Source of the DNA: Flavobacteriales bacterium
Lineage (GTDB): Bacteria; Bacteroidota; Bacteroidia; CAIKAF01
Assembly: GCA_025451235.1 (NCBI GenBank)
Contig: JANWKT010000013.1
Span: 81,317-145,316, forward strand
Direction: 5' to 3'
Length of the DNA stretch: 64,000 bases
Below are positions 46,411-57,062 of this stretch, in pieces. Position numbers and translations under genes: made by a program. The notes under the pieces were generated by a model, which had not been told where the DNA came from, did not search any database, and worked only from the letters and a program-made list of their open reading frames with translations. The first letter of the stretch is position 1; the number at the start of each line of letters is the position of its first letter.

Positions 46411-46597
46411 ATATGCTGCTGTATGCAGAAATGTTTTTGAATAGGTAGGTATGTGGGAATGGTGAGTGATGGGGGCTTAGATTTGTGTACAACGAAAGTA
46501 GGATTTTTTGAGGAATTCCTGGTTTGTCGTCCAGCTGATGTTTTTTTTAGTTCCCGTAGACGTTTTTATCTGATTTGGCTGTGGGCTCGTGTGGTTT

Positions 46598-46775
46598 GTT
46601 CCCGCAGATCTCGCAGATTTTCGCAGGCTTTTTTCTATCGTCACAATACCATTCGGCTGACTGCATTTCGCAGATCAGAGGCGCCACGGCGCCTCATCTG
46701 CGAGATAAGAGCAGCCGAATGGGAAGGCAGGGCAAAAGCCCTTCTTAAGCGAAAATCAGCGAGATCTGCGGGAAC
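46598..46775. repeat. MITE-like small element, copy A
   Basis: Terminal inverted repeats gttcccgcagatctcgcagattt (46598-46620) and aaatcagcgagatctgcgggaac (46753-46775). Internal palindrome tcgcagat..gaggcgcc..ggcgcctc..atctgcga. A second copy lies at 62150-62316. Confidence 0.7.
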
Positions 46776-46880
46776 AAAATGATTATTGCCAACTATGGAC
46801 ATATTCCAGTACAAGAGGTCCGAAGATTTTTAACACTCCTTCCGCCAATTATTTTTAATTTTCTGAACTATCCTGAAAGT

Positions 46881-47841: not shown

Positions 47842-48267
47842 TTACCCTAGCATTTCCAAAATTTTCTTTGTTATTGACGGTGGGAATATGCTACAAGACT
47901 CCCAAGCTTCAAGTGTGATTCCTAGCTTTTTCAAATTAAGTTTGACATTATCTGATACGGTTTTGTAGTTTGATTCGCATCTTTTTGCTATTTCTTTTTT
48001 TGATAGGACAAATTCGATTTCCTCCCCTAGCGCCTGCTTTAGCCTAACAGTGTCCCAATATCTAAGCCATCTCATTTCATTCCATTTTTTATGTGGAATT
48101 TCATTTTGAAAAAATTTTATCCATTTAGATAAGGTAGGTCGAGTTATTCCGTAATCCTTGGCAATTGCTTCTTTTGATTTTCTGGTACTAACAAGTATGA
48201 AAAAAGAAATAATAAAAACGAGAAGAATTACTGCATTTTTGAATGAATCTGAGAGCTGCTTTTCCAT
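47842..48267 (-). CDS. Membrane-anchored helix-turn-helix protein
   Basis: N-terminal TM 'AVILLVFIISFFILV' then HTH 'KEAIAKDYGITRPTLSKWIKFF'. At the edge of the AT-rich island. Confidence 0.5.
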   Translation of the reverse strand: MEKQLSDSFKNAVILLVFIISFFILVSTRKSKEAIAKDYGITRPTLSKWIKFFQNEIPHKKWNEMRWLRYWDTVRLKQALGEEIEFVLSKKEIAKRCESNYKTVSDNVKLNLKKLGITLEAWESCSIFPPSITKKILEMLG

Positions 48268-48422
48268 ATAGTTTAATAATTTGCAACAAAGATAGATTCA
48301 GCCTAAAAATAGATCTAAACTTTTTGCAATATTCTCTGAATGACTATATAAATAATTGGTTGTGTGATATTTATATTCAACTAGCAGAATTAGCGTATTG
48401 TAACGAAGAATTATTTACCACG

Positions 48423-48474
48423 CTAGACCACCTTAGTCCGTTACGCTGCTAGGCTACCCAAGTCCGCTACGCTG
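48423..48474. repeat. Two adjacent imperfect 26-bp direct repeats
   Basis: ctagaccaccttagtccgttacgctg / ctaggctacccaagtccgctacgctg, followed by the palindrome ccgat-ttataaata-tcgg. Confidence 0.55.
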
Positions 48475-48625
48475 TTACCGATTTATAAATATCGGAACTT
48501 TAATTTAAACTACAATGATAGCGTGGCGTAAATTTCAAAATACGCCCAGGCGGGTTAGTAGCAGTACACTTTAAATTGGCCGTATCGCAGGTAATGTGGA
48601 AAATATACAGTTAGCTGTTGGCGTT

Positions 48626-49684
48626 TCATTTTTTAAAAGATTTTTGAAGTCTTTCAAATACTTTCTCCAAAAACAGATAGTTAACATCAAATTCATTTGA
48701 TACTGAGAATTCATAAAGTATATAATGATTCACCTCGTGCAAAATACTAATAGTGAATTGCATTGGATCAATGAATGCTTTTAATTCAATATCTTGATCT
48801 AACAATTTTGGTAAAACTATTTTGTTCCTAGTCATGAATTGTTGTAATCCATTGAAGTTTGAATGAATTTGTTCACTACATAGAACATAGTATGGTCGAA
48901 ATCTACTCATTTCAGCTCTTTCTTCAAGAACTCTAAAATCTGCTTTTTTATTTCCTAGAAACAAATCGTCCGCCCATCCAAAATCATTTTTTAAAAAATC
49001 CTTACCATATTTATTTCCGAGTGTCTCTTTAGCTTTATTAAGGTTTATCTCCGTTTTCTTTGGAAGGGGAGGAAACTTTAATGCTTTGTGGTTACTATTG
49101 TAGGCTGCTATCTTTCTTTGAGAATTTCTAATGGAATGCTCGTAGAATTTATTTGAAAGCTCAGCATTATTTTCAAGTGCCAAAACCAGTAGTATAATTG
49201 CATCTTCATACATTGCACGCCAAATAATCATAGCTCCATCTATATATCCACTTACTAATAAGTCAACAATTTCCTGAGCCCTTCTCAACATTAAGCCGTA
49301 TAAGGAAATGTTTATTTTTAAGGTACTGTCAATTCGCTTCCTATTTACCTTAACACTGATTTGCTCATACATATTTGCACAGGCTGTAATGTAAAGGATG
49401 AATGAAATGAAAGAGTCTCTATTATTCTGGACTATTGCACGTTGATTTTTGAAATGAACCTTTAAAAAGTCATCAATTTTAAAGTTGTGGTTTTCTAAAT
49501 AGGTATTTGTTAAAATATCCTCGTAGTCAGATATTATACCATCAAGATTTGATGCAATTTTCTGTGCTATTTCCTTTTCTGAAAGCTTGGATGTGCTAAT
49601 AAGATTAATTAATGTGCTATTAAGGATTTCGCTAAAGTCTTCAAAAAAGAGACCTTCTATTTCTACTTGTTTATATCGTCCCAA
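48626..49684 (-). CDS. Hypothetical protein (unknown family), last gene of 4-gene AT-rich operon
   Basis: 352 aa. No recognisable motif. Codon usage is AT-rich and unlike the flanking genes. Confidence 0.55.
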   Translation of the reverse strand: MGRYKQVEIEGLFFEDFSEILNSTLINLISTSKLSEKEIAQKIASNLDGIISDYEDILTNTYLENHNFKIDDFLKVHFKNQRAIVQNNRDSFISFILYITACANMYEQISVKVNRKRIDSTLKINISLYGLMLRRAQEIVDLLVSGYIDGAMIIWRAMYEDAIILLVLALENNAELSNKFYEHSIRNSQRKIAAYNSNHKALKFPPLPKKTEINLNKAKETLGNKYGKDFLKNDFGWADDLFLGNKKADFRVLEERAEMSRFRPYYVLCSEQIHSNFNGLQQFMTRNKIVLPKLLDQDIELKAFIDPMQFTISILHEVNHYILYEFSVSNEFDVNYLFLEKVFERLQKSFKK

Positions 49685-49709
49685 AATATAACCTTTTAAA
49701 TTGTGTTAT

Positions 49710-50480
49710 TCATTTTTTACCCTTTTCTAATAAAGGCAAAATAGTACTTTTTAATGTCAGCAGCATATACGGTCTTTTAACCTTTCCCTCTTTTAAATAT
49801 TTACTAATAACTCTTGTGACGCCTAAAAAGGATTCTTCAGTATGTTTTTTTGCGTTCAAATATTCCTTCCTTTTAATCTCCCTAGGGTATGACCAATTTG
49901 TACCATCAATATCAACATAAAAGCAATGTTCTTTAATTTGCTGAGCATTTGAAAGCCAATCTTTCTTCTCAATTATAGTTTTGCTCGGTGTTTTTGGTCC
50001 TAATTTTGATTGAATTTCTGCTGTTTGGGTTGCGTTTGCCATTGTCTGACCAATACGTTTAATGTAATTCTCAATCGATTCTCCTTCCCTAATCTGTAAA
50101 TTGTCTTTCTCTGTTAGAATAAAACTATTGATTTTACCATCGAAGTCAATTTTTTTAAGATTTCTGTGGATATGATTGAAAGCACTGGCAATATGAAGGC
50201 GAGTTTCGTGTATATTCTTATATCCTTTGACTTTTTTAAACCCGTAATCTATAAATTCTTTATCCCTAACCCCTATTAAGAAAAAAAATAAAGATTGCGC
50301 TTTTATTAATTCCTCAATCGTAAGCAACTTTAAAGCTGTTGCAAGCGGATATTTTTTCTTAGTTGCCAAGATATCGGCCGCATTGCTAAGATCTCTTGCA
50401 TTTGTATAAATAACCTCTAAGCCATCCTCGATAGTTTCTTCATCAAGCCTTAAAAGAATTTCATAACTAAGTTTCACCAT
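49710..50480 (-). CDS. AbiV-like (abortive infection) family protein, tentative
   Basis: N-terminal 'YTNARDLSNAADILATKKKYPLATALKLLTIEELIKAQSL' resembles the AbiV/Abi_2 N-terminal consensus (NA.rLl.DA..L...YpsA.aLailAiEE.gKa). Confidence 0.5.
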   Translation of the reverse strand: MVKLSYEILLRLDEETIEDGLEVIYTNARDLSNAADILATKKKYPLATALKLLTIEELIKAQSLFFFLIGVRDKEFIDYGFKKVKGYKNIHETRLHIASAFNHIHRNLKKIDFDGKINSFILTEKDNLQIREGESIENYIKRIGQTMANATQTAEIQSKLGPKTPSKTIIEKKDWLSNAQQIKEHCFYVDIDGTNWSYPREIKRKEYLNAKKHTEESFLGVTRVISKYLKEGKVKRPYMLLTLKSTILPLLEKGKK

Positions 50481-50506
50481 TACTTAAAAAATTAATATTT
50501 AAATAT

Positions 50507-51916
50507 TTAATATTTTGTTTTATTAGCATACCCATTAATTATTAGAGCAATCATAATCCAGCCAAAAAAGGTTTCACTTCCGACGAGCAATTTTATCTGG
50601 TTACTATATTCGGCTAAATTAACTCCACCTATTCGAACGAATCCAAAAATCGCATTATATAATCCGTCTATCCAGCTTTCGGAAATTCCCACCAAATAAT
50701 AAACAAAGGAGTAAGCAATAATGACCAATATTGAGTTATAAATAAGTCGATGGGGCTTCTCTCCAAATCCCCATAAAAGATAATTACATATGCCCAAGAA
50801 ACTCAAACGAATTTGTTGAATGCATCTAAAAAACTCCCTTTTCAATCGTAATAGTGTGCCTCGATTTTGTCTTCTGTTCTTACCTAGTTTATAATGGCCC
50901 CAAAAGGTATTAATACTTGCAATTGTGGAAAACAGTTCGAATTTACGTTCAAAGTAATGTGATTCCTTTGTTCGCTTTCTGTCTCCCTGTCTTGAATAGG
51001 CTATTCTGAATTTGACAAAATTGTCTGCAATATATCGATAAGTGCTTGCTTTAGTAGAGTAAAAATCTCTCTTCATAGGAATATATTTGACTTCCTCAAT
51101 ATAACTATTTTGCAAATCAATTCGATTCATTGAAATCTCGTCAAACGTAACATATCTTAATTCACTATTCTTACAAGTCATGCTCCACAAATTCCCATTA
51201 TGAAAATGCGTAGCGTATATTTCTGAACTATTTTCCAGTTTCAGATTTTGAAAATCACATTCAACAAGATTTAGGGAGCTTAATTTCCCATCATTAAGTC
51301 TAATATTGTGTGCATGAGCAAAATATATACTATGCATTATATTGCCGTGATCTGGACCTTCAATAGTCAAAAAATCCAAATTGGTAAAGTCAAGATTTCG
51401 TCTATTTATTCTGTACCCTCGTGTAATAGTTAAGCCACCAAGTTTTAGCACATAGTGACCCATCATTTTCCATTGGCAAAGATCTGGAACATCTGGAGCA
51501 TGTCCTGAACCATATAGCAACTTAGTATTCTTGCCCGGTAGGAAATGTCTAGTTTTATACTTTCTTTGACCCCATAAGATATATGGCGTAAATCTTTGAT
51601 AAATATGATTTTTTTCTTTAGCTCTCCTTTCGACTTCTTTTGCAGCCTGCGTTGATTGTGGATGAACAAAATAATATCGATCGTCTGGATGATTTTCCGA
51701 GAAATCGATTAAATATTTATCATATTCCCCATGAAATAATTCTCCAGGATTTCTGATTTTCACAAGGGTGTCAATCAGAAAATTATTTTCACTAAGCCAA
51801 TCGCCAAAACCCGGAAGATTTTTTTCGAAGGACATGAATAGTTTCGGCAAATCATTCTTTTCTCTCCAAAGATTGAATTCATCAGTAGGAAGGTCCCATA
51901 GTTCTTGAGGAGTCAT
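50507..51916 (-). CDS. Pentapeptide-repeat protein fused to C-terminal 2-TM pore-like (Ion_trans_2-like) domain
   Basis: 469 aa. Central pentapeptide-like repeats ('NLDFTNLDFLT', 'LSSLNLVECDFQNLKLENS', 'MNRIDLQNSYIEEV'). C-terminus has TM1 'LIYNSILVIIAYSFVYYLVGI', pore-helix-like 'WIDGLYNAIFGFVRIGGVN' (compare K-channel 'F.DALYFS.VT.TTVGYGD') and TM2 'FFGWIMIALIINGY'. Confidence 0.55.
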   Translation of the reverse strand: MTPQELWDLPTDEFNLWREKNDLPKLFMSFEKNLPGFGDWLSENNFLIDTLVKIRNPGELFHGEYDKYLIDFSENHPDDRYYFVHPQSTQAAKEVERRAKEKNHIYQRFTPYILWGQRKYKTRHFLPGKNTKLLYGSGHAPDVPDLCQWKMMGHYVLKLGGLTITRGYRINRRNLDFTNLDFLTIEGPDHGNIMHSIYFAHAHNIRLNDGKLSSLNLVECDFQNLKLENSSEIYATHFHNGNLWSMTCKNSELRYVTFDEISMNRIDLQNSYIEEVKYIPMKRDFYSTKASTYRYIADNFVKFRIAYSRQGDRKRTKESHYFERKFELFSTIASINTFWGHYKLGKNRRQNRGTLLRLKREFFRCIQQIRLSFLGICNYLLWGFGEKPHRLIYNSILVIIAYSFVYYLVGISESWIDGLYNAIFGFVRIGGVNLAEYSNQIKLLVGSETFFGWIMIALIINGYANKTKY

Positions 51917-51944
51917 TTAGCTGATTCTAACTTATTAATTAAGA

Positions 51945-52568
51945 CTATCTAATGCGTTTTTCGATAGGCATTCGAACTATTCTGGCCACACCTTTGTCAA
52001 ACTTGGCTAGAGAAATATTGGGAAAGGTAAGATAATCTTCCTTTCCTTCATTCTCATCGGTAATGCTACTATCATTTATCAGAGATTTTCCTTTGGTTTT
52101 AAAAGCACGATTATAATAAACCAAGCTGTCCCTGTTAGAATGAATCATTACCAAGATATTTTCCTTGGGAACTAGCTTTTCTATTTTAAAGTAACAGTCC
52201 TTAAAAAAAGGTCCATTTTCTTTGTATGTAAAGTCAATATTGCCATTAGGAGCTAGTTGTATTTGGTCCCCAACCAACATCTGAATATTTATTTCAATAT
52301 TATTAACCGTATTTTTTGATTGATTTGTCACTAAATAATTAGTTGTATAGTCCTGATTACTAATGGTTGGTTCTATTTCTACAATATCCAACGAACTTTT
52401 ATAATACCGTTCAGTGAAATATGGAGTTGTTACAACAAGTTGGACAATTGCTACAATTAGTGCAAGAATTGACAATATAAGTGAAACGTTAATTTTATTG
52501 TTCTGATTCTTTTCATGAAGTGCATCAGAAGTTTCAAATTTTATATTGGTCTTTTTCTTTTTACTCAT
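51945..52568 (-). CDS. Hypothetical single-pass membrane protein
   Basis: 207 aa. Basic N-terminus 'MSKKKKTNIKF' then TM 'VSLILSILALIVAIVQLVV'. Confidence 0.5.
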   Translation of the reverse strand: MSKKKKTNIKFETSDALHEKNQNNKINVSLILSILALIVAIVQLVVTTPYFTERYYKSSLDIVEIEPTISNQDYTTNYLVTNQSKNTVNNIEINIQMLVGDQIQLAPNGNIDFTYKENGPFFKDCYFKIEKLVPKENILVMIHSNRDSLVYYNRAFKTKGKSLINDSSITDENEGKEDYLTFPNISLAKFDKGVARIVRMPIEKRIR

Positions 52569-52702: not shown

Positions 52703-53830
52703 TTAATCCGGAATGAAAGGCCTGTGGGCAGAATGGGAGTTAGGCAAAGTGAATTCTTGTTGTAATTTATCTGAGTAATCCCGAAGTCTAATAATCGATT
52801 TCAAAACAAATTTATTATCCGGCTCAACTGAACGCCAGAAGTGCAAATACCCAAACAATCTTTCAAGATATATTGGGTCAAATGAATTAATATGTTTTTG
52901 ATGTTCGAACAATCCTTTCGAAAGGACATAATGAACATTTTTTCTAACTTCTCGCTTAGCTTTTTTCGGAACAGTCATTGTTCCATTGGATATCGAAATC
53001 CCTGTAATAATTTTTTGATTTTTCTCACCAAGCAATTTTGTTTTGGGCTTATTTATATTAAATCCTTCTTCTTCGGTAATTTCTTCAATATATGTTGTCA
53101 TTTTAATTGGTATTGCACCCCCAGAAAAAGTAAAATCATCAGCATACCTGGTATAATTTAGTTTAAATTTATTTGCTAGTCCATTTAATCTTTGATCAAG
53201 TCTTTTTGCTATAATATTGCTTATCGCCGGACTTGTAGCTGCTCCTTGAGGTAGAGCTCGATTCAAACAACAAATTGCGGCTAAGTAGTAGGAGATTCTT
53301 TTTGTGTACCCCAAATTCCGAAAAATTGCAATTACTCGATTTATTTTTATGGATGGAAAAAAATTTTGAATATCCATTTTTAATACAAATTTGGTATTGA
53401 GATGTTCTTTAGCATTGTCAACAATTGAAGTATTTTTGATAAATCCCTTGGAACATTTATGTAATGGTTGGTGAATTAGGATGTTCTCGTAAATCCACTT
53501 TTGAGCATGCAATAAAACAGGATAAGGCGCTGAAATTATTCTTTGGCCTCCATTTCTTTTTGGAATCTCAAAAGTATAATAAAAGCTATTGGATTTCATC
53601 ACTATACTCGAAAGCACTTCCCTCTGAATGCCCAGTAATGAGGCTAAATGGTTAAAATCCAAAATTATTACGGTGTTATTCGAAATGAGTTTTTGCACAT
53701 AAATTGATAGTGCCTTTTGAGTTTTTTCACCTCTTACATTTTTCGAGATGAAATCAACCCATTTTTCGATTTGTATTTTTTTATCTTCTAGCATGGTAAT
53801 AAAAAATGAGGATGGGAAAACTACTTTCAA
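52703..53830 (-). CDS. Retron-type reverse transcriptase
   Basis: Collinear with Ec86 RT. 'RNGGQRIISAP' (RT1-2). 'KMDIQNFFPSI' (compare Ec86 NIDLEDFFPSL). 'LPQGAATSPAISN' (compare LPQGAPSSPKLAN). 'YTRYADDFTFSG' (YADD catalytic box). Retron thumb 'QKIITGISIS' (compare RKVTGLVIS). The annotated start is TTG; an in-frame ATG at ~53794 (MLEDKK...) is more likely. Confidence 0.9.
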   Translation of the reverse strand: MKVVFPSSFFITMLEDKKIQIEKWVDFISKNVRGEKTQKALSIYVQKLISNNTVIILDFNHLASLLGIQREVLSSIVMKSNSFYYTFEIPKRNGGQRIISAPYPVLLHAQKWIYENILIHQPLHKCSKGFIKNTSIVDNAKEHLNTKFVLKMDIQNFFPSIKINRVIAIFRNLGYTKRISYYLAAICCLNRALPQGAATSPAISNIIAKRLDQRLNGLANKFKLNYTRYADDFTFSGGAIPIKMTTYIEEITEEEGFNINKPKTKLLGEKNQKIITGISISNGTMTVPKKAKREVRKNVHYVLSKGLFEHQKHINSFDPIYLERLFGYLHFWRSVEPDNKFVLKSIIRLRDYSDKLQQEFTLPNSHSAHRPFIPD

Positions 53831-53974
53831 TGAAATTTATTCATACTACTAAATCCTACAACGTAGATTTAGTAGTGCAGTTCTGTTAGGAACTTCACTA
53901 GTGCCTTTTTCAGGTACTAGTGTGGTTAACCACAGCATTAATAAATGAGGCGAATACACCTCAATGTGCTAGTT
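53831..53974 (-). ncRNA. Candidate retron msr/msd non-coding RNA region
   Basis: A 144 nt gap (up to ~180 nt if the RT starts at 53794) between the WH gene stop and the RT. It holds hairpins actactaaatc-N10-gatttagtagt (53845-53876), cactagtgcc-ttttt-caggtactagtg (53896-53922) and the palindrome tggttaacca (53923-53932). The a1/a2 repeats were not resolved by eye. Confidence 0.5.
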
Positions 53975-54337
53975 TCATTTCCCATCCTCAATGTTTTTAA
54001 AAATTTCTTTATCCAAAGTTTTTCGATTTGGTATGTATAACTCATTTATACCCAAAATAGGTTGTTTCATGTTTTCAGGAATTAGTTTCCAGTATTTGAC
54101 GTTTTCACGTAAAAATATATATTTTCTATTCCCAAATATCCAATTGCGCCCATATTCGTTAAGGGTTATTTGATTACCACTAATAACTATTAACCCATTA
54201 TCTTCAAATTTTTGTATTGTTCTCGCAAGTTGAAAAGGAGATAGCTGGTATTTTTCATGAAAAAAATACAAATCCAAACTGTTTTGGGCATATAATTCTT
54301 TGAGGAACTCAATATCCTCGCTTAATAATTCTATCAT
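53975..54337 (-). CDS. Small winged-helix-like DNA-binding protein (retron accessory)
   Basis: 120 aa. 'LSPFQLARTIQKFEDNGLIVISGNQITL' has the HTH + wing pattern. A 4-bp overlap (ATGA) with the upstream PRTase-like gene suggests translational coupling. Confidence 0.6.
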   Translation of the reverse strand: MIELLSEDIEFLKELYAQNSLDLYFFHEKYQLSPFQLARTIQKFEDNGLIVISGNQITLNEYGRNWIFGNRKYIFLRENVKYWKLIPENMKQPILGINELYIPNRKTLDKEIFKNIEDGK

Positions 54338-55191
54338 ATCCGTCTAAAAAGTGTTTTTCTTTGAATCCCCCCTTTATAAAAGGGCCACCAAAATATTGGG
54401 AATACATTATTCGGAACATTATTGGCTTCGAAGCCAAATAGGGCTTCTGACCTTTTATATCCGAAATTGGGGAGTTTTCTACTCCCAATTTTATTCTTTA
54501 ATTTACTTTCAAGATTCTCCATGGATTTTTTAGCTGAAGGCCTGTTTTCTGCCTCCATTATCTCACTAATCCCTTTCTTCAACCAAAAAACTGAGTAATA
54601 TTCCATGTACAATTTATCTAATACATCTTTGGAAAACTCCATAGCGGCTAGGCTAATAGTTCTAACGGTTACATTGGTAAGTTGGCGTTTTTCTATTGTT
54701 GAACGCATGTATTTTACTTTTCGCTCAATTGTATCACCTGTTCCAATGAAGTCGTCCGTTAGTATAACATTTGAATTGTCTGGAATTTCATTAGCTCCAA
54801 TCGGTAACGAGTTAAAAAAATTAGATTCCTTCCAATTCATAGAGAATTTATTTTTTAGACATTGTATAATACTTTGGGATCCGTCTGGGTTTTTATCGTC
54901 ACACGTAGCAATAAGAAAAGTACTTTCTGAAGTTAAACCCCAATTTGTTTCGATTTGAGCTGCAATGCTCTTACCTGCCTCATTTAATGTTTGTCCATCA
55001 ACGAAGGAAAAGTTCTTTATTAGGAATTCAATTAAATCTTTTTGGTCTTTATTATCCGATAGACACCATAATTCAAAGAGTGCTTCTGGCTCATATGAAA
55101 GCCACTTGTACTCTTTGTGTAATTTAGTTAAAGTGACAAAATCGTTAACGTCAATTTTGCCAGATGCTCTATTTACAATCTCTTCATTCAT
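54334..55191 (-). CDS. Phosphoribosyltransferase (PRTase)-like protein (retron effector candidate)
   Basis: 285 aa. PRPP-binding-type motif 'VILTDDFIGTGDTI' (compare 'VLLVDDVITTGST'). Confidence 0.65.
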   Translation of the reverse strand: MNEEIVNRASGKIDVNDFVTLTKLHKEYKWLSYEPEALFELWCLSDNKDQKDLIEFLIKNFSFVDGQTLNEAGKSIAAQIETNWGLTSESTFLIATCDDKNPDGSQSIIQCLKNKFSMNWKESNFFNSLPIGANEIPDNSNVILTDDFIGTGDTIERKVKYMRSTIEKRQLTNVTVRTISLAAMEFSKDVLDKLYMEYYSVFWLKKGISEIMEAENRPSAKKSMENLESKLKNKIGSRKLPNFGYKRSEALFGFEANNVPNNVFPIFWWPFYKGGIQRKTLFRRI

Positions 55192-55422: not shown

Positions 55423-56634
55423 CTATTCAGGACAGTTGGCTACACAAACCTCCTGCGTGATGCCGTAAAGAATGGTGAGCTTACCGGTCATATATTTTTG
55501 ACTGGTAGCCAGGTAGCAATCCAAAGATAAGGTACCATCATTTTCCAAAATGGTTCTTTTAAACTTAAATTCGGCTAAACCTTTGGTAGAGGTGTAGTAG
55601 CAACTAAATATAACAGATTCAGGATTTTTTAGTTTTGTCTTTACTACAAAATTAATTTTATAAGGACTTTTTTGGTTGGGGAATTTTTGCGTGCCTATCA
55701 GCTCACCCTCTAATGTAGTCACTTTTAACCAGTTTTTTGGCAGGTTAATTTCAATGTTGCATTCATACGTCATGTTAATGATCCTGGTGACGGTCACTGG
55801 ATCTTTTTCAATGGCTGGAATGTTTATAGGAATAATGTTATAACCCTCATCCAAATCAACAATCACAAACGCTTTATAGGGATCTTTTCTTTTGAAAGTT
55901 AATGTATACCTTTCACCATACTCGATCTTTTTTCCTTCTATTCTGTCGTTTATTAATACCAGATTTTCCGAAAAGGAGATATCTCTTACTTTTACTTTGT
56001 CTCCATTGTTTCTAAATGGGTTGGTCTTTAACTCAAAGAATACGGTTACAGTACTGTCCGATTGTCCCAGTAATTCGAGATACGGGATATCGTTCGTTAT
56101 TTTTATGCATTCCGTCCAGGCATTTAATGAATTTTCAACATCTTCACTGCGGGTATAGGTTTCGTTTAATTCAATTTTTTCATTGTAACTAAGTGAATAA
56201 TCTATTTTGGTTTTATACTTTTTAAATATACTCTTCACTTTTGATTTATTGGAACCCCAATTAAATGCACCAAAATCAGGAACACTAAACCCTGCCGAGG
56301 AACTTCTCCTGTTTTGAAGATCTTCCTGTGAGGAGGATTCATACAGGTAATTCAGTTTTTCTAAATAATCCTTATCCGTTTTCAAGGATAGTTTCTGGTA
56401 AACAACGGAGAAAGCCGCATCACAGGAACCTATAAATGCTTTATTGGTTTCAAATGATAAGGAGTCTGATACCTGGTTTTTGTTGGATCCGTCCTCCGGC
56501 ATGATTACAAACTCTACAAATGCGTCTTTAACAACCGAATCTTGAATTGCCTTTTCATCCTTTTTTACCGTCTTGGAGCCACAGCTGGATAAAAATGCAG
56601 TTAATACAAGGATCAAGAAAAAATAATTTTTCAT
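55423..56634 (-). CDS. Hypothetical lipoprotein
   Basis: Leader 'MKNYFFLILVLTAFLSSCGSKTV'. 403 aa. AT-rich codon usage. Confidence 0.6.
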   Translation of the reverse strand: MKNYFFLILVLTAFLSSCGSKTVKKDEKAIQDSVVKDAFVEFVIMPEDGSNKNQVSDSLSFETNKAFIGSCDAAFSVVYQKLSLKTDKDYLEKLNYLYESSSQEDLQNRRSSSAGFSVPDFGAFNWGSNKSKVKSIFKKYKTKIDYSLSYNEKIELNETYTRSEDVENSLNAWTECIKITNDIPYLELLGQSDSTVTVFFELKTNPFRNNGDKVKVRDISFSENLVLINDRIEGKKIEYGERYTLTFKRKDPYKAFVIVDLDEGYNIIPINIPAIEKDPVTVTRIINMTYECNIEINLPKNWLKVTTLEGELIGTQKFPNQKSPYKINFVVKTKLKNPESVIFSCYYTSTKGLAEFKFKRTILENDGTLSLDCYLATSQKYMTGKLTILYGITQEVCVANCPE

Positions 56635-56819
56635 TTTTCATTTTTTAAAATTGCTCTAGTTGTCCGGCTTTAAGTGAAGCCCCCGTTTTTTTAGGTGGGT
56701 TCTGATCTCCACTTTGTTGGTTGTGATAAGGATCTATTCGATGTGAATAGTTGGTAGTATAAGACAACAAGGTAACTGAATTACTTTCTATTGGGTCATG
56801 ATCCAAACAATTTAATCAC

Positions 56820-57055
56820 AACTGTAACATACGAACGCTGCTGTAAGGCTTCGACCAAACTGTATTAGGTTTGATCTCAACGAAGTACGAAATGGTACGA
56901 GCCTACGAACTACGAACAAAGCAGTGGAGCTTCGACCGAGTTGTTACGGGGTTAACCACAACGAAGTACGAACCTATACGAACATACGAACTACGAATAA
57001 GGTTAGCATCGGTTCGTAGTTCGTAGGTTCGTATGTTTTGTTCGTACTTCGGTGA
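56820..57055. repeat. Composite 'tacgaac' repeat region: two ~45 bp direct repeats plus a ~36 bp imperfect hairpin
   Basis: Direct repeats ggcttcgaccaaact..caacgaagtacgaa / agcttcgaccgagtt..caacgaagtacgaa. Hairpin cgaagtacgaacctatacgaacatacgaactacgaa-N15-ttcgtagttcgtaggttcgtatgttttgttcgtacttcg. Confidence 0.6.
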
Positions 57056-57062
57056 AAACAAA

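What the first reader, a model, noticed from the sequence alone, without database searches (positions are those of the whole stretch)
48626..52568. Tight 4-gene AT-rich operon downstream of the retron: candidate uncharacterised abortive-infection/defence module
Four co-directional genes lie immediately downstream of the RT, separated by 25-28 bp gaps, with markedly lower GC than the chromosomal flanks. They encode:
- a 207-aa single-TM protein;
- a 469-aa pentapeptide-repeat / pore-like fusion;
- a 256-aa AbiV-like protein;
- a 352-aa protein of unknown family.

None of these combinations corresponds to a defence system I can name. The combination of a membrane pore-like effector, an Abi-like protein and unknowns next to a retron is the typical signature of a defence island carrying an undescribed system.
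Basis: inference. Interest (0 to 1): 0.8.

Follow-up and report, generated by a model that had tools for sequence, protein, structure and literature searches.

The report
Mosaic defence island, orphan HalA-like channel
The four tightly packed genes are real, but they look like four unrelated single-gene cassettes parked behind a complete retron, not one new four-gene system; the most interesting one is a rare ion-channel protein built like HalA, the DNA-gated channel of the Hailong anti-phage system, but with no HalB partner and with an extra unknown N-terminal domain.

Summary
Observation confirmed. Four minus-strand ORFs of 207, 469, 256 and 352 aa are separated by 28, 26 and 25 nt. They start 134 nt after a retron RT, inside a ~9-kb low-GC island.

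Interpretation not supported. The upstream retron is a complete type III-A unit (PRTase, winged-helix protein, structured ncRNA, RT). None of the four genes keeps any of the others as a neighbour elsewhere. I checked 11 independent contexts for the 469-aa family, 5 close full-length contexts for the 352-aa family and 2 for the 207-aa family. The 256-aa protein has no close relative.

- **256-aa protein:** a divergent AbiV-family HEPN protein without a strict Rx4-6H motif, and with no room upstream for an RNA antitoxin.
- **352-aa protein:** DUF5677, a scattered singleton also found in prophage accessory regions.
- **207-aa protein:** a small single-TM protein of unknown function.

Best reading: a mosaic defence island. 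The one novel piece is an orphan HalA-like channel.

The parts
51945..52568 (-). gA: 207-aa protein with a basic N-terminus, one TM helix (residues 23-53) and a ~150-aa beta-rich domain. The family is small and uncharacterised.
   Evidence: ORF and hydropathy. No significant Pfam, PADLOC, NCBIfam or PHROG hit. 47 cluster representatives among 1.84e9 proteins. Two homologous loci have unrelated neighbours.
51401..51916 (-). gB residues 1-172: conserved N-terminal domain of unknown fold (helical bundle plus a small alpha/beta unit). It is absent from HalA.
51062..51400 (-). gB residues ~173-285: pentapeptide-repeat right-handed beta-helix, equivalent to the HalA 'crown'.
50771..51061 (-). gB residues ~286-382: long helical linker between the crown and the membrane domain.
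   Evidence: Secondary structure of model m7ab034d8112b: H289-310, H313-333, H348-382.
50507..50770 (-). gB residues ~383-469 plus stop: TM1, pore helix and TM2 of the tetrameric cation-channel type (Ion_trans_2). The selectivity filter is degenerate (FVRIGGVN where relatives have TTLGYGD).
   Evidence: Ion_trans_2 in homologues. K-channel hits in PDB. Alignment columns 520-530. TM segments 391-414 and 441-461.
49710..50480 (-). gC: divergent AbiV-family HEPN protein, 256 aa.
   Evidence: HEPN_AbiV at 1.9e-18 and TIGR04498 at 4.9e-14. No relative with E <= 1e-3 in the 5.8e9-protein search. No strict Rx4-6H motif.
48626..49684 (-). gD: DUF5677 protein, 352 aa, all-helical, function unknown.
   Evidence: PF18928 at 1.7e-22. 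113 homologues. Singleton contexts. Also present in an E. coli lambdoid prophage and in Bacillus phage SPR.
52703..55191 (-). Neighbour, not part of the cluster: a complete type III-A retron. Components are PRTase 54334-55191, winged-helix protein 53975-54337, ncRNA ~53795-54000 and RT 52703-53830.
   Evidence: PADLOC PRTase_III-A 1.1e-87, WH_III-A 3.7e-17, RT_III-A 5.8e-133. 19-nt inverted arms (I12). RNA fold z = -8.09.

Best explanation
The region is the distal part of a ~9-kb horizontally acquired, low-GC defence island. A complete type III-A retron is followed by four independently evolving single-gene cassettes. They are probably co-transcribed here but are not one functional system.

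**gB** is the piece with a predictable mechanism (inferred, not shown). It is a HalA-like membrane effector that would assemble as a tetramer, with a cytoplasmic pentapeptide-repeat crown above a K-channel-type pore. At rest it would be held closed. On infection it would open, depolarise the membrane and arrest growth (abortive infection). No HalB nucleotidyltransferase accompanies it, and its strongest conservation lies in the extra N-terminal domain. I therefore infer that this domain takes over the regulatory role that HalB-made oligo-dA plays in Hailong, either by auto-inhibition or by sensing a ligand or phage protein.

**gC** is an AbiV-family HEPN protein. It is probably an RNase-type Abi toxin, although its catalytic motif is non-canonical.

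**gD (DUF5677)** and **gA** are mobile accessory genes of unknown activity that recur in islands and prophage accessory regions.
For: **Shown**
- Gene structure and low GC.
- The retron is complete without these genes. Type III retrons are defined as PRTase with or without a winged-helix protein, plus RT (PMC7736814).
- No co-occurrence of gA-gD or the retron proteins in 19 fetched loci. All-against-all BLASTP of neighbours in seven gB contexts found no shared family beyond weak integrase and helicase matches.
- gB homologues stand alone next to varied partners: CBASS, pPIWI_RE, type III RM plus Abi_C, SLFN_AlbA_2, RadC, integrases and IS elements. Two sit among housekeeping genes.
- gD homologues are singletons and occur in prophage accessory regions.

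**Inferred**
- Tetramer formation, gating, depolarisation and the role of the N-terminal domain. The HalA mechanism is taken from the review PMC13434031.
Against: - Context samples are small: 11 for gB, 5 close plus 1 distant for gD, 2 for gA and none for gC. Partners that are remote homologues or non-homologous analogues would be missed by BLAST and Pfam.
- The uniform 25-28-nt spacing and the absence of predicted terminators fit a single transcript, so local functional coupling cannot be excluded.
- The gB-HalA similarity is remote (10-14% identity, TM-score 0.35-0.46). Both domains are common, so convergent domain fusion is possible.
- Two of the 11 gB contexts show no defence genes.
- A DUF5677 gene tested in Enterococcus was not among those reported to protect (PMC12632615).
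- gC lacks a strict Rx4-6H motif.
- There is no experimental evidence for any of the four genes.
Confidence: 0.62

Rival explanations
1. One reading: the four genes form one undescribed multi-gene abortive-infection system, with or without the retron.
For: Co-directional genes with 25-28-nt gaps and no predicted internal terminator. All lie in one low-GC island. They combine a membrane effector with an Abi-like protein.
Against: No homologue of any of the four proteins has any of the others nearby in 19 loci. gD and gB are demonstrably stand-alone elsewhere. The retron already has its own effector pair.
Confidence: 0.07
2. gB is functionally coupled to the adjacent retron. The retron's single-stranded msDNA would replace HalB-made oligo-dA as the ligand that keeps the HalA-like channel closed, so loss or modification of msDNA during infection would open the channel.
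For: gB has the HalA architecture. HalA is gated by ssDNA made by a partner enzyme (PMC13434031). The only DNA-synthesising enzyme in the island is the RT, two genes (gA in between, 786 nt) upstream on the same strand.
Against: None of 10 other gB-family contexts contains an RT. The retron carries its canonical PRTase and WH effector pair. gA lies between the RT and gB. DNA binding by the gB crown is untested.
Confidence: 0.04
3. gB-family proteins are nucleotide-signal-gated effectors of CD-NTase systems (CBASS-like or Hailong-like pairs). Under this reading the window copy is an orphan effector that has lost its NTase.
For: In L002-L005 the homologue P0009 starts 44 nt after a second CBASS-type cyclase (PADLOC Cyclase 1.3e-87; PDB 7ljo 5.8e-45). 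The adjacent CdnE (6wt9 3.8e-97) already pairs with TIR-STING, so P0009 sits in the effector slot.
Against: This was seen in only 1 of 11 independent contexts. No SAVED, STING or other known sensor domain is present. The N-terminal domain has no match to a nucleotide-binding fold.
Confidence: 0.12
4. Not defence at all: gB is an ordinary cation channel, and gA, gC and gD are miscellaneous accessory genes or selfish toxin-type genes with no role against phage.
For: Two gB homologues sit among housekeeping genes. gD homologues lie next to housekeeping genes. A DUF5677 gene gave no reported protection. PADLOC has no hit for any of the four.
Against: - The gB family is very rare and patchy: 17 clusters in 5.8e9 proteins.
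- Most gB contexts are rich in defence or mobile genes.
- The cluster lies in a low-GC island next to a retron.
- gC passes curated AbiV thresholds.
- PADLOC-DB 2.0.0 is dated 2023; the HalA structure and the Hailong paper date from 2025.
Confidence: 0.13

Closest known systems
HalA, effector of the Hailong anti-phage system (PDB 9nyi; Tan et al., Nature 2025, as summarised in PMC13434031)
   Different: - No adjacent HalB nucleotidyltransferase in the window or in 10 of the 11 gB-family contexts including it.
- About 170 extra, highly conserved N-terminal residues of unknown fold.
- Only 10-14% identity.
- DNA binding and gating are untested.
- The window clade has a degenerate selectivity filter.
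Lactococcal AbiV (HEPN RNase AbiV1 plus abiV2 RNA antitoxin; bioRxiv 10.1101/2024.05.05.592566)
   Same: gC passes the Pfam HEPN_AbiV and NCBIfam AbiV_defense thresholds. It is similar in size and is a cytoplasmic helical protein.
   Different: - No strict Rx4-6H motif. AbiV has 91-RNHKSKH-97, while gC has KGYKNIH / KNIHETRLH at the equivalent place.
- A ~50-residue insertion relative to the family model.
- Only 26 nt upstream, so there is no room for a separate ~170-nt abiV2-like RNA gene.
- No relative with E <= 1e-3 in the 5.8e9-protein search.
DUF5677 (PF18928)
   Same: gD matches 157 of 166 profile positions at E 1.7e-22. Like other members it is a mobile singleton, found in an E. coli lambdoid prophage next to hokD, in phage SPR and on archaeal plasmids.
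   Different: gD has an extra ~120-residue N-terminal region that is conserved only within a Bacteroidota-centred subfamily. No function is known for any member. One member showed no reported anti-phage activity.
Type III-A retrons (PRTase plus winged-helix protein plus RT plus ncRNA; Mestre et al. 2020, PMC7736814)
   Same: The upstream neighbour fits this type fully.
   Different: The four genes are not part of any described retron type, and no homologue of them was found with a retron elsewhere.
Other channel-type abortive-infection effectors (e.g. CBASS Cap14, a cGAMP-gated chloride channel; bioRxiv 10.1101/2023.07.24.550367)
   Same: The concept is shared: a ligand-controlled ion channel that collapses membrane potential on infection. 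One gB homologue sits in the effector slot after a CD-NTase.
   Different: Cap14 is an N-terminal TM domain plus a SAVED domain. gB has no SAVED domain, and its pore is of the K-channel (Ion_trans_2) type.

Membership tests
Hailong defence system | HalA-type effector: DNA-binding crown domain on top of a conserved ion-channel domain | tested here: met
Hailong defence system | Partner HalB nucleotidyltransferase in the same operon | tested here: not met
   All island genes are accounted for: PRTase, WH, RT, gA-gD, an HTH protein and a lipoprotein. None is an NTase. Only one of the 10 gB-family contexts outside the window has an NTase next to the gene, and it scores as a CBASS cyclase.
Hailong defence system | Effector binds oligodeoxyadenylate and is held closed by it; it opens and depolarises the membrane when the DNA is removed | not testable with these tools
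   This needs biochemistry and electrophysiology. The primary Hailong paper was not in the library, so DNA-contact residues could not be compared.
AbiV abortive-infection family | HEPN_AbiV domain above curated thresholds | tested here: met
   PF18728 scores 67.5 bits against a cut-off of 27.1. TIGR04498 scores 52.9 bits against a cut-off of 27.
AbiV abortive-infection family | Catalytic Rx4-6H HEPN motif | tested here: not met
   A regex scan finds no R-x(4-6)-H in gC. Only K85-x5-H91 and N/Q-x4-6-H variants are present. The reference motif is 91-RNHKSKH-97.
AbiV abortive-infection family | Upstream abiV2 RNA antitoxin (type III TA-like organisation) | tested here: inconclusive
   Only 26 nt separate the gB stop from the gC start. 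The only tandem repeat there is an AT-rich 15-mer x2 at 50484-50515. An RNA embedded in the 3' end of gB cannot be excluded.
Pentapeptide-repeat proteins | Tandem A(D/N)LXX repeats forming a right-handed quadrilateral beta-helix | tested here: met
K+-selective channels (Ion_trans_2) | T-x-G-Y/F-G-D selectivity filter | tested here: not met
   The window protein has FGFVRIGGVN. Distant family members (P0007-P0016) keep TTLGYGD or TLGFGD. The pore fold is retained.
DUF5677 (PF18928) | Pfam model above the gathering score | tested here: met
   80.7 bits against a cut-off of 27.1, covering residues 126-286.
Type III-A retron (as an extended system including gA-gD) | Accessory genes co-evolve and co-occur with the RT | tested here: not met
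   No RT, PRTase or WH homologue was found in any locus holding a gA, gB or gD homologue. The described type III components are PRTase with or without WH.
Single conserved multi-gene defence system (generic criterion) | Gene neighbourhood conserved across unrelated genomes | tested here: not met
   the neighbours differ in every context.

The most novel reading that the evidence does not exclude
The HalA-like channel gB is guarded by the neighbouring retron. Retron msDNA, rather than HalB-made oligo-dA, would be the single-stranded DNA ligand that keeps the channel shut. That would make this a natural hybrid between retron and Hailong immunity.

A less exotic but more likely novel reading (about 0.3) is that the gB family is a self-contained, HalB-independent single-gene defence channel, controlled by its conserved N-terminal domain.
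Probability: 0.04. Interest if true: 0.85.

Novelty: new variant of a known kind. Interest (0 to 1): 0.42.

Why it matters
Hailong showed that a membrane channel can be held shut by a constitutively made DNA 'guard'. Here a rare family (17 clusters among 5.8 billion proteins) keeps the same crown-plus-pore architecture, has no nucleotidyltransferase partner, and carries a highly conserved extra domain. If it works as inferred, HalA-type channels can be controlled in another way, by self-contained sensing or by a different ligand. That would also give a compact single-gene abortive-infection effector to test.

The finding is also a caution. Tight co-directional packing next to a retron does not define a system, because defence islands concatenate unrelated cassettes. 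The AbiV-like gene without a canonical HEPN motif and the DUF5677 gene are ordinary examples of uncharacterised island cargo.

Tried and rejected
- **gD vs gC:** a profile-profile comparison of the gD family with gC, to test whether DUF5677 is a cryptic HEPN, gave probability 0.3%. No relation.
- **PDB sequence searches:** nothing for gC or for the gD profile. gB as a single sequence gave only one weak K-channel hit.
- **PADLOC:** no hit for gA-gD or for five gB homologues.
- **IMG/VR viral contigs:** scans for gB, gD and gC found no relatives.
- **Phage and plasmid collections:** nothing for gA or gC, and nothing for gB in phages.
- **Metagenome scan for gA:** alignments A3 and A4 were too divergent to build patterns. 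A5 returned only 2 loci.
- **Genome scan for gD:** only 6 loci.
- **Literature and source:** the primary Hailong paper is not held. The window's own contig is not on record for a context look-up.
- **L002 NTase as HalB:** I considered whether the 321-aa NTase upstream of the gB homologue is a HalB. It scores as a genuine CBASS cyclase, so it is not evidence for canonical Hailong, but it is a lead.
- **Spacer downstream of gD:** the 358-nt spacer, with a 26-nt x2 repeat, is not significantly structured as RNA (z -0.62). I rejected it as an antitoxin RNA candidate.
- **Internal promoters:** the sigma-70 promoter scan is not informative, with fewer hits than in shuffles. No Bacteroidota TAnnTTTG motif lies in the short intergenic gaps.


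Full report
**1. Observation**

The four ORFs exist exactly as described, all on the minus strand:

| Gene | Coordinates | Length |
|---|---|---|
| gA | 51945-52568 | 207 aa |
| gB | 50507-51916 | 469 aa |
| gC | 49710-50480 | 256 aa |
| gD | 48626-49684 | 352 aa |

- The gaps between them are 28, 26 and 25 nt. gA begins 134 nt after the stop of a reverse-transcriptase gene (52703-53830).
- GC is 0.31-0.35 here, against 0.40-0.46 on either side. The low-GC block runs from about 48.0 to 56.9 kb, so it includes the retron and a 403-aa lipoprotein gene.
- No terminator-like hairpin is predicted between the RT and gD. The window contains no tRNA gene.
- gA, gB and gD have conserved full-length homologues, and gC passes two curated family models. 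These are genuine genes.

**2. The neighbour is a complete retron**

- PADLOC models identify PRTase_III-A (1.1e-87), WH_III-A (3.7e-17) and RT_III-A (5.8e-133).
- Between the WH and RT genes, 19-nt inverted arms (53801-53819 / 53978-53996) close a highly structured RNA of -71.9 kcal/mol, z = -8.09. This is what a retron msr-msd looks like.
- Type III retrons are defined by a PRTase-like effector, with or without a winged-helix auxiliary protein (PMC7736814).
- The retron therefore needs nothing from the four downstream genes.

**3. What each gene is**

*gA*
- One TM helix (residues 23-53) followed by a ~150-aa domain.
- No significant family hit.
- An exhaustive HMMER search found 47 cluster representatives.

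*gB*
- Pfam gives only a sub-threshold Pentapeptide_4 hit. Its 16 homologues commonly carry Ion_trans_2.
- The family is very rare: 17 clusters in 5.8 billion proteins.
- An AlphaFold model built on the family alignment is confident, with pLDDT 87 and pTM 0.80. It shows four parts:
  - an N-terminal alpha plus alpha/beta domain (1-~170);
  - a beta-helix (~175-285);
  - long helices (289-382);
  - a TM1, pore helix and TM2 module (389-468).
- The family profile also hits HalA across both domains (query 222-469, chain 84-365, E 1.6e-3). HalA residues 98-155 are visibly pentapeptide repeats.
- HalA is the effector of Hailong. The partner NTase HalB makes oligo-dA, which binds the HalA crown and keeps the tetrameric channel closed. 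Phage exonuclease removes the DNA, and the open channel depolarises the cell (PMC13434031).

gB differs from HalA in three ways:
- No NTase gene lies in the island.
- The K+ filter, kept as TTLGYGD or TLGFGD in distant members, is FVRIGGVN in the window clade.

*gC*
- Passes the curated thresholds of Pfam HEPN_AbiV and NCBIfam AbiV_defense.
- It has no relative with E <= 1e-3 in the 5.8e9-protein search.
- It has no strict Rx4-6H motif. Lactococcal AbiV uses 91-RNHKSKH-97.
- Lactococcal AbiV needs an upstream ~170-nt abiV2 RNA antitoxin. Here only 26 nt precede gC.

*gD*
- It is DUF5677, E 1.7e-22.
- It has 113 mostly full-length homologues at 40-60% identity, and those with a source name are from Bacteroidota.
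- A profile comparison with gC shows no relationship. There is no PDB relative.

**4. Is it one system?**

*gB family: eleven independent contexts, counting this window.*

| Context | Neighbours |
|---|---|
| L001 | SLFN_AlbA_2, caspase-like protein, integrases |
| L002-L005 | CdnE plus TIR-STING CBASS, a second cyclase, restriction genes, IS66 |
| L006 | pPIWI_RE, SMEK, SLFN |
| L007 | type III RM, Abi_C, HNH, IS3 |
| Contig without DNA | MNT-HEPN, Hypoth_Ymh, DUF2971 |
| L008 | housekeeping genes and a PRTase |
| L009 | integrase and unknown genes |
| L018 | preceded by a 196-aa gene on the opposite strand (107-nt gap); 328 nt before the next gene; ParB-like, SLFN |
| L019 | RadC, DUF4145 |
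| L023, Aeromonas caviae | housekeeping genes |

An all-against-all BLASTP of the neighbours in seven of these contexts (the window plus six fetched loci) found no shared family beyond weak integrase and helicase matches.

*gD family: five close full-length genome loci.* The neighbours are IS110 and rve transposases, ApbE, RsgA, a GldM-like protein, acyl-CoA dehydrogenase and an esterase. One copy is frameshifted.

*gA family: two loci.* One lies next to a DnaJ-domain gene. The other lies between a DUF4062/SLFN-like ATPase and a TIR protein, near GmrSD.

tblastn with all four proteins plus the RT, WH and PRTase against every fetched locus found no co-occurrence. The four genes therefore do not travel together. 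The cluster is a concatenation of independent cassettes, as is common in defence islands.

**5. Wider hints on function**

- DUF5677 genes also sit in the accessory region of an E. coli lambdoid prophage next to hokD. The gene is full-length in 72 of 5426 genomes.
- They also occur in Bacillus phage SPR and on archaeal plasmids.
- The domain was enriched near serine recombinases in a defence-discovery screen. The tested member was not among the genes reported to protect (PMC12632615).
- One gB homologue (P0009, found on 14 contigs) starts 44 nt after a second CBASS-type cyclase. That cyclase has no other obvious effector, because the neighbouring CdnE already pairs with TIR-STING. This is the only NTase-plus-channel arrangement seen. 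It is a lead that some family members may be signal-regulated.

**6. Mechanism, with the status of each step**

- *Shown:* the architecture and fold of gB, the absence of a partner gene, the concentration of conservation in the N-terminal domain, and the variable, mostly defence-rich contexts.
- *Inferred for gB:* it tetramerises as a HalA-like channel and acts as an abortive-infection effector by dissipating membrane potential. Control is exerted through the N-terminal domain rather than through HalB-made DNA.
- *Inferred for gC:* it acts as a HEPN RNase-type Abi protein, but the motif deviation leaves its activity uncertain.
- *gA and gD:* no mechanism can be justified beyond 'mobile accessory proteins'.

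**7. Rivals**

| Explanation | Confidence |
|---|---|
| One four-gene system | about 0.07 |
| Retron-msDNA-gated channel | about 0.04 |
| NTase-signal-gated orphan effector | about 0.12 |
| Not defence at all | about 0.13 |

**8. Novelty and score**

- As framed, a new four-gene system, the finding is not supported.
- What remains is a defence island carrying known or named families plus one interesting item: an orphan HalA-like channel with a new N-terminal domain, from a very rare family.
- That is a new variant of a known kind. It is worth a targeted experiment but is not categorically new.
- Interest: 0.42.

Noticed in passing
window 53795-54000 (-): Probable retron msr-msd ncRNA between the winged-helix and RT genes. 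19-nt inverted arms (53801-53819 / 53978-53996) close a multi-hairpin fold of -71.9 kcal/mol, z = -8.09. No Rfam family matched it.
   Followed up: partly
window 56649-56717 (-): Sub-threshold match to the Rfam DUF805 RNA motif (RF03081): 40.1 bits against a gathering score of 51.1, E 1.6e-4, full model length. It lies just upstream of the 403-aa lipoprotein ORF 55423-56634, which has no family hit.
   Followed up: no
window 56830-57062: An 81-nt direct repeat x2 (70% identity) with arrays of TACGAAC heptamers and 22-nt inverted arms. It sits exactly at the GC shift that marks the island's right-hand border.
   Followed up: no
window 48268-48625: The 358-nt spacer between gD and a 141-aa HTH gene (47842-48267) holds a 26-nt tandem repeat x2 (48422-48474) and a TAnnTTTG motif at 48287-48294. 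It is not significantly structured as RNA (z -0.62). It may hold operator sites for the HTH protein.
   Followed up: partly
window 46595-46778: Nested inverted repeats: 30-nt arms at 97% complementarity and a second pair at 77%. They lie in the intergenic region left of the island and may be a MITE-like or REP-like element.
   Followed up: no
L002 6960-11401 (also L003-L005): Two CBASS cyclases lie in tandem. CdnE (PDB 6wt9, 3.8e-97) pairs with TIR-STING. A second cyclase (PADLOC 1.3e-87) is followed 44 nt later by the gB homologue P0009, which sits where an effector would be. This may be an NTase plus HalA-like channel pair.
   Followed up: partly
alignment A2, columns ~520-530 (window gB residues ~425-435): Distant gB-family members keep a canonical K+ selectivity filter (TTLGYGD or TLGFGD). 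The window clade (P0001-P0006) has lost it (RIGGVN, KASGMD, RVGGND and similar). This suggests a change in ion selectivity within the family.
   Followed up: partly
L013 10001-11061 (Epilithonimonas mollis): The DUF5677 homologue is split into two overlapping ORFs (149 and 230 aa). It is a frameshifted pseudogene or an assembly error.
   Followed up: no
L022 8933-9958 (E. coli O128:H27 prophage): A DUF5677 gene lies in the accessory region of a lambdoid prophage, between replication-region genes and hokD/rusA/Q. The 1.2-kb segment is full-length in 72 of 5426 complete E. coli genomes and partly present in 1259.
   Followed up: partly
L017 5023-9299: A gA homologue lies between a DUF4062/HATPase_c_4/Fic-like_C protein and a 517-aa TIR_2 protein, with GmrSD nearby. 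All are on one strand, so this may be another uncharacterised island arrangement involving the small TM protein.
   Followed up: no
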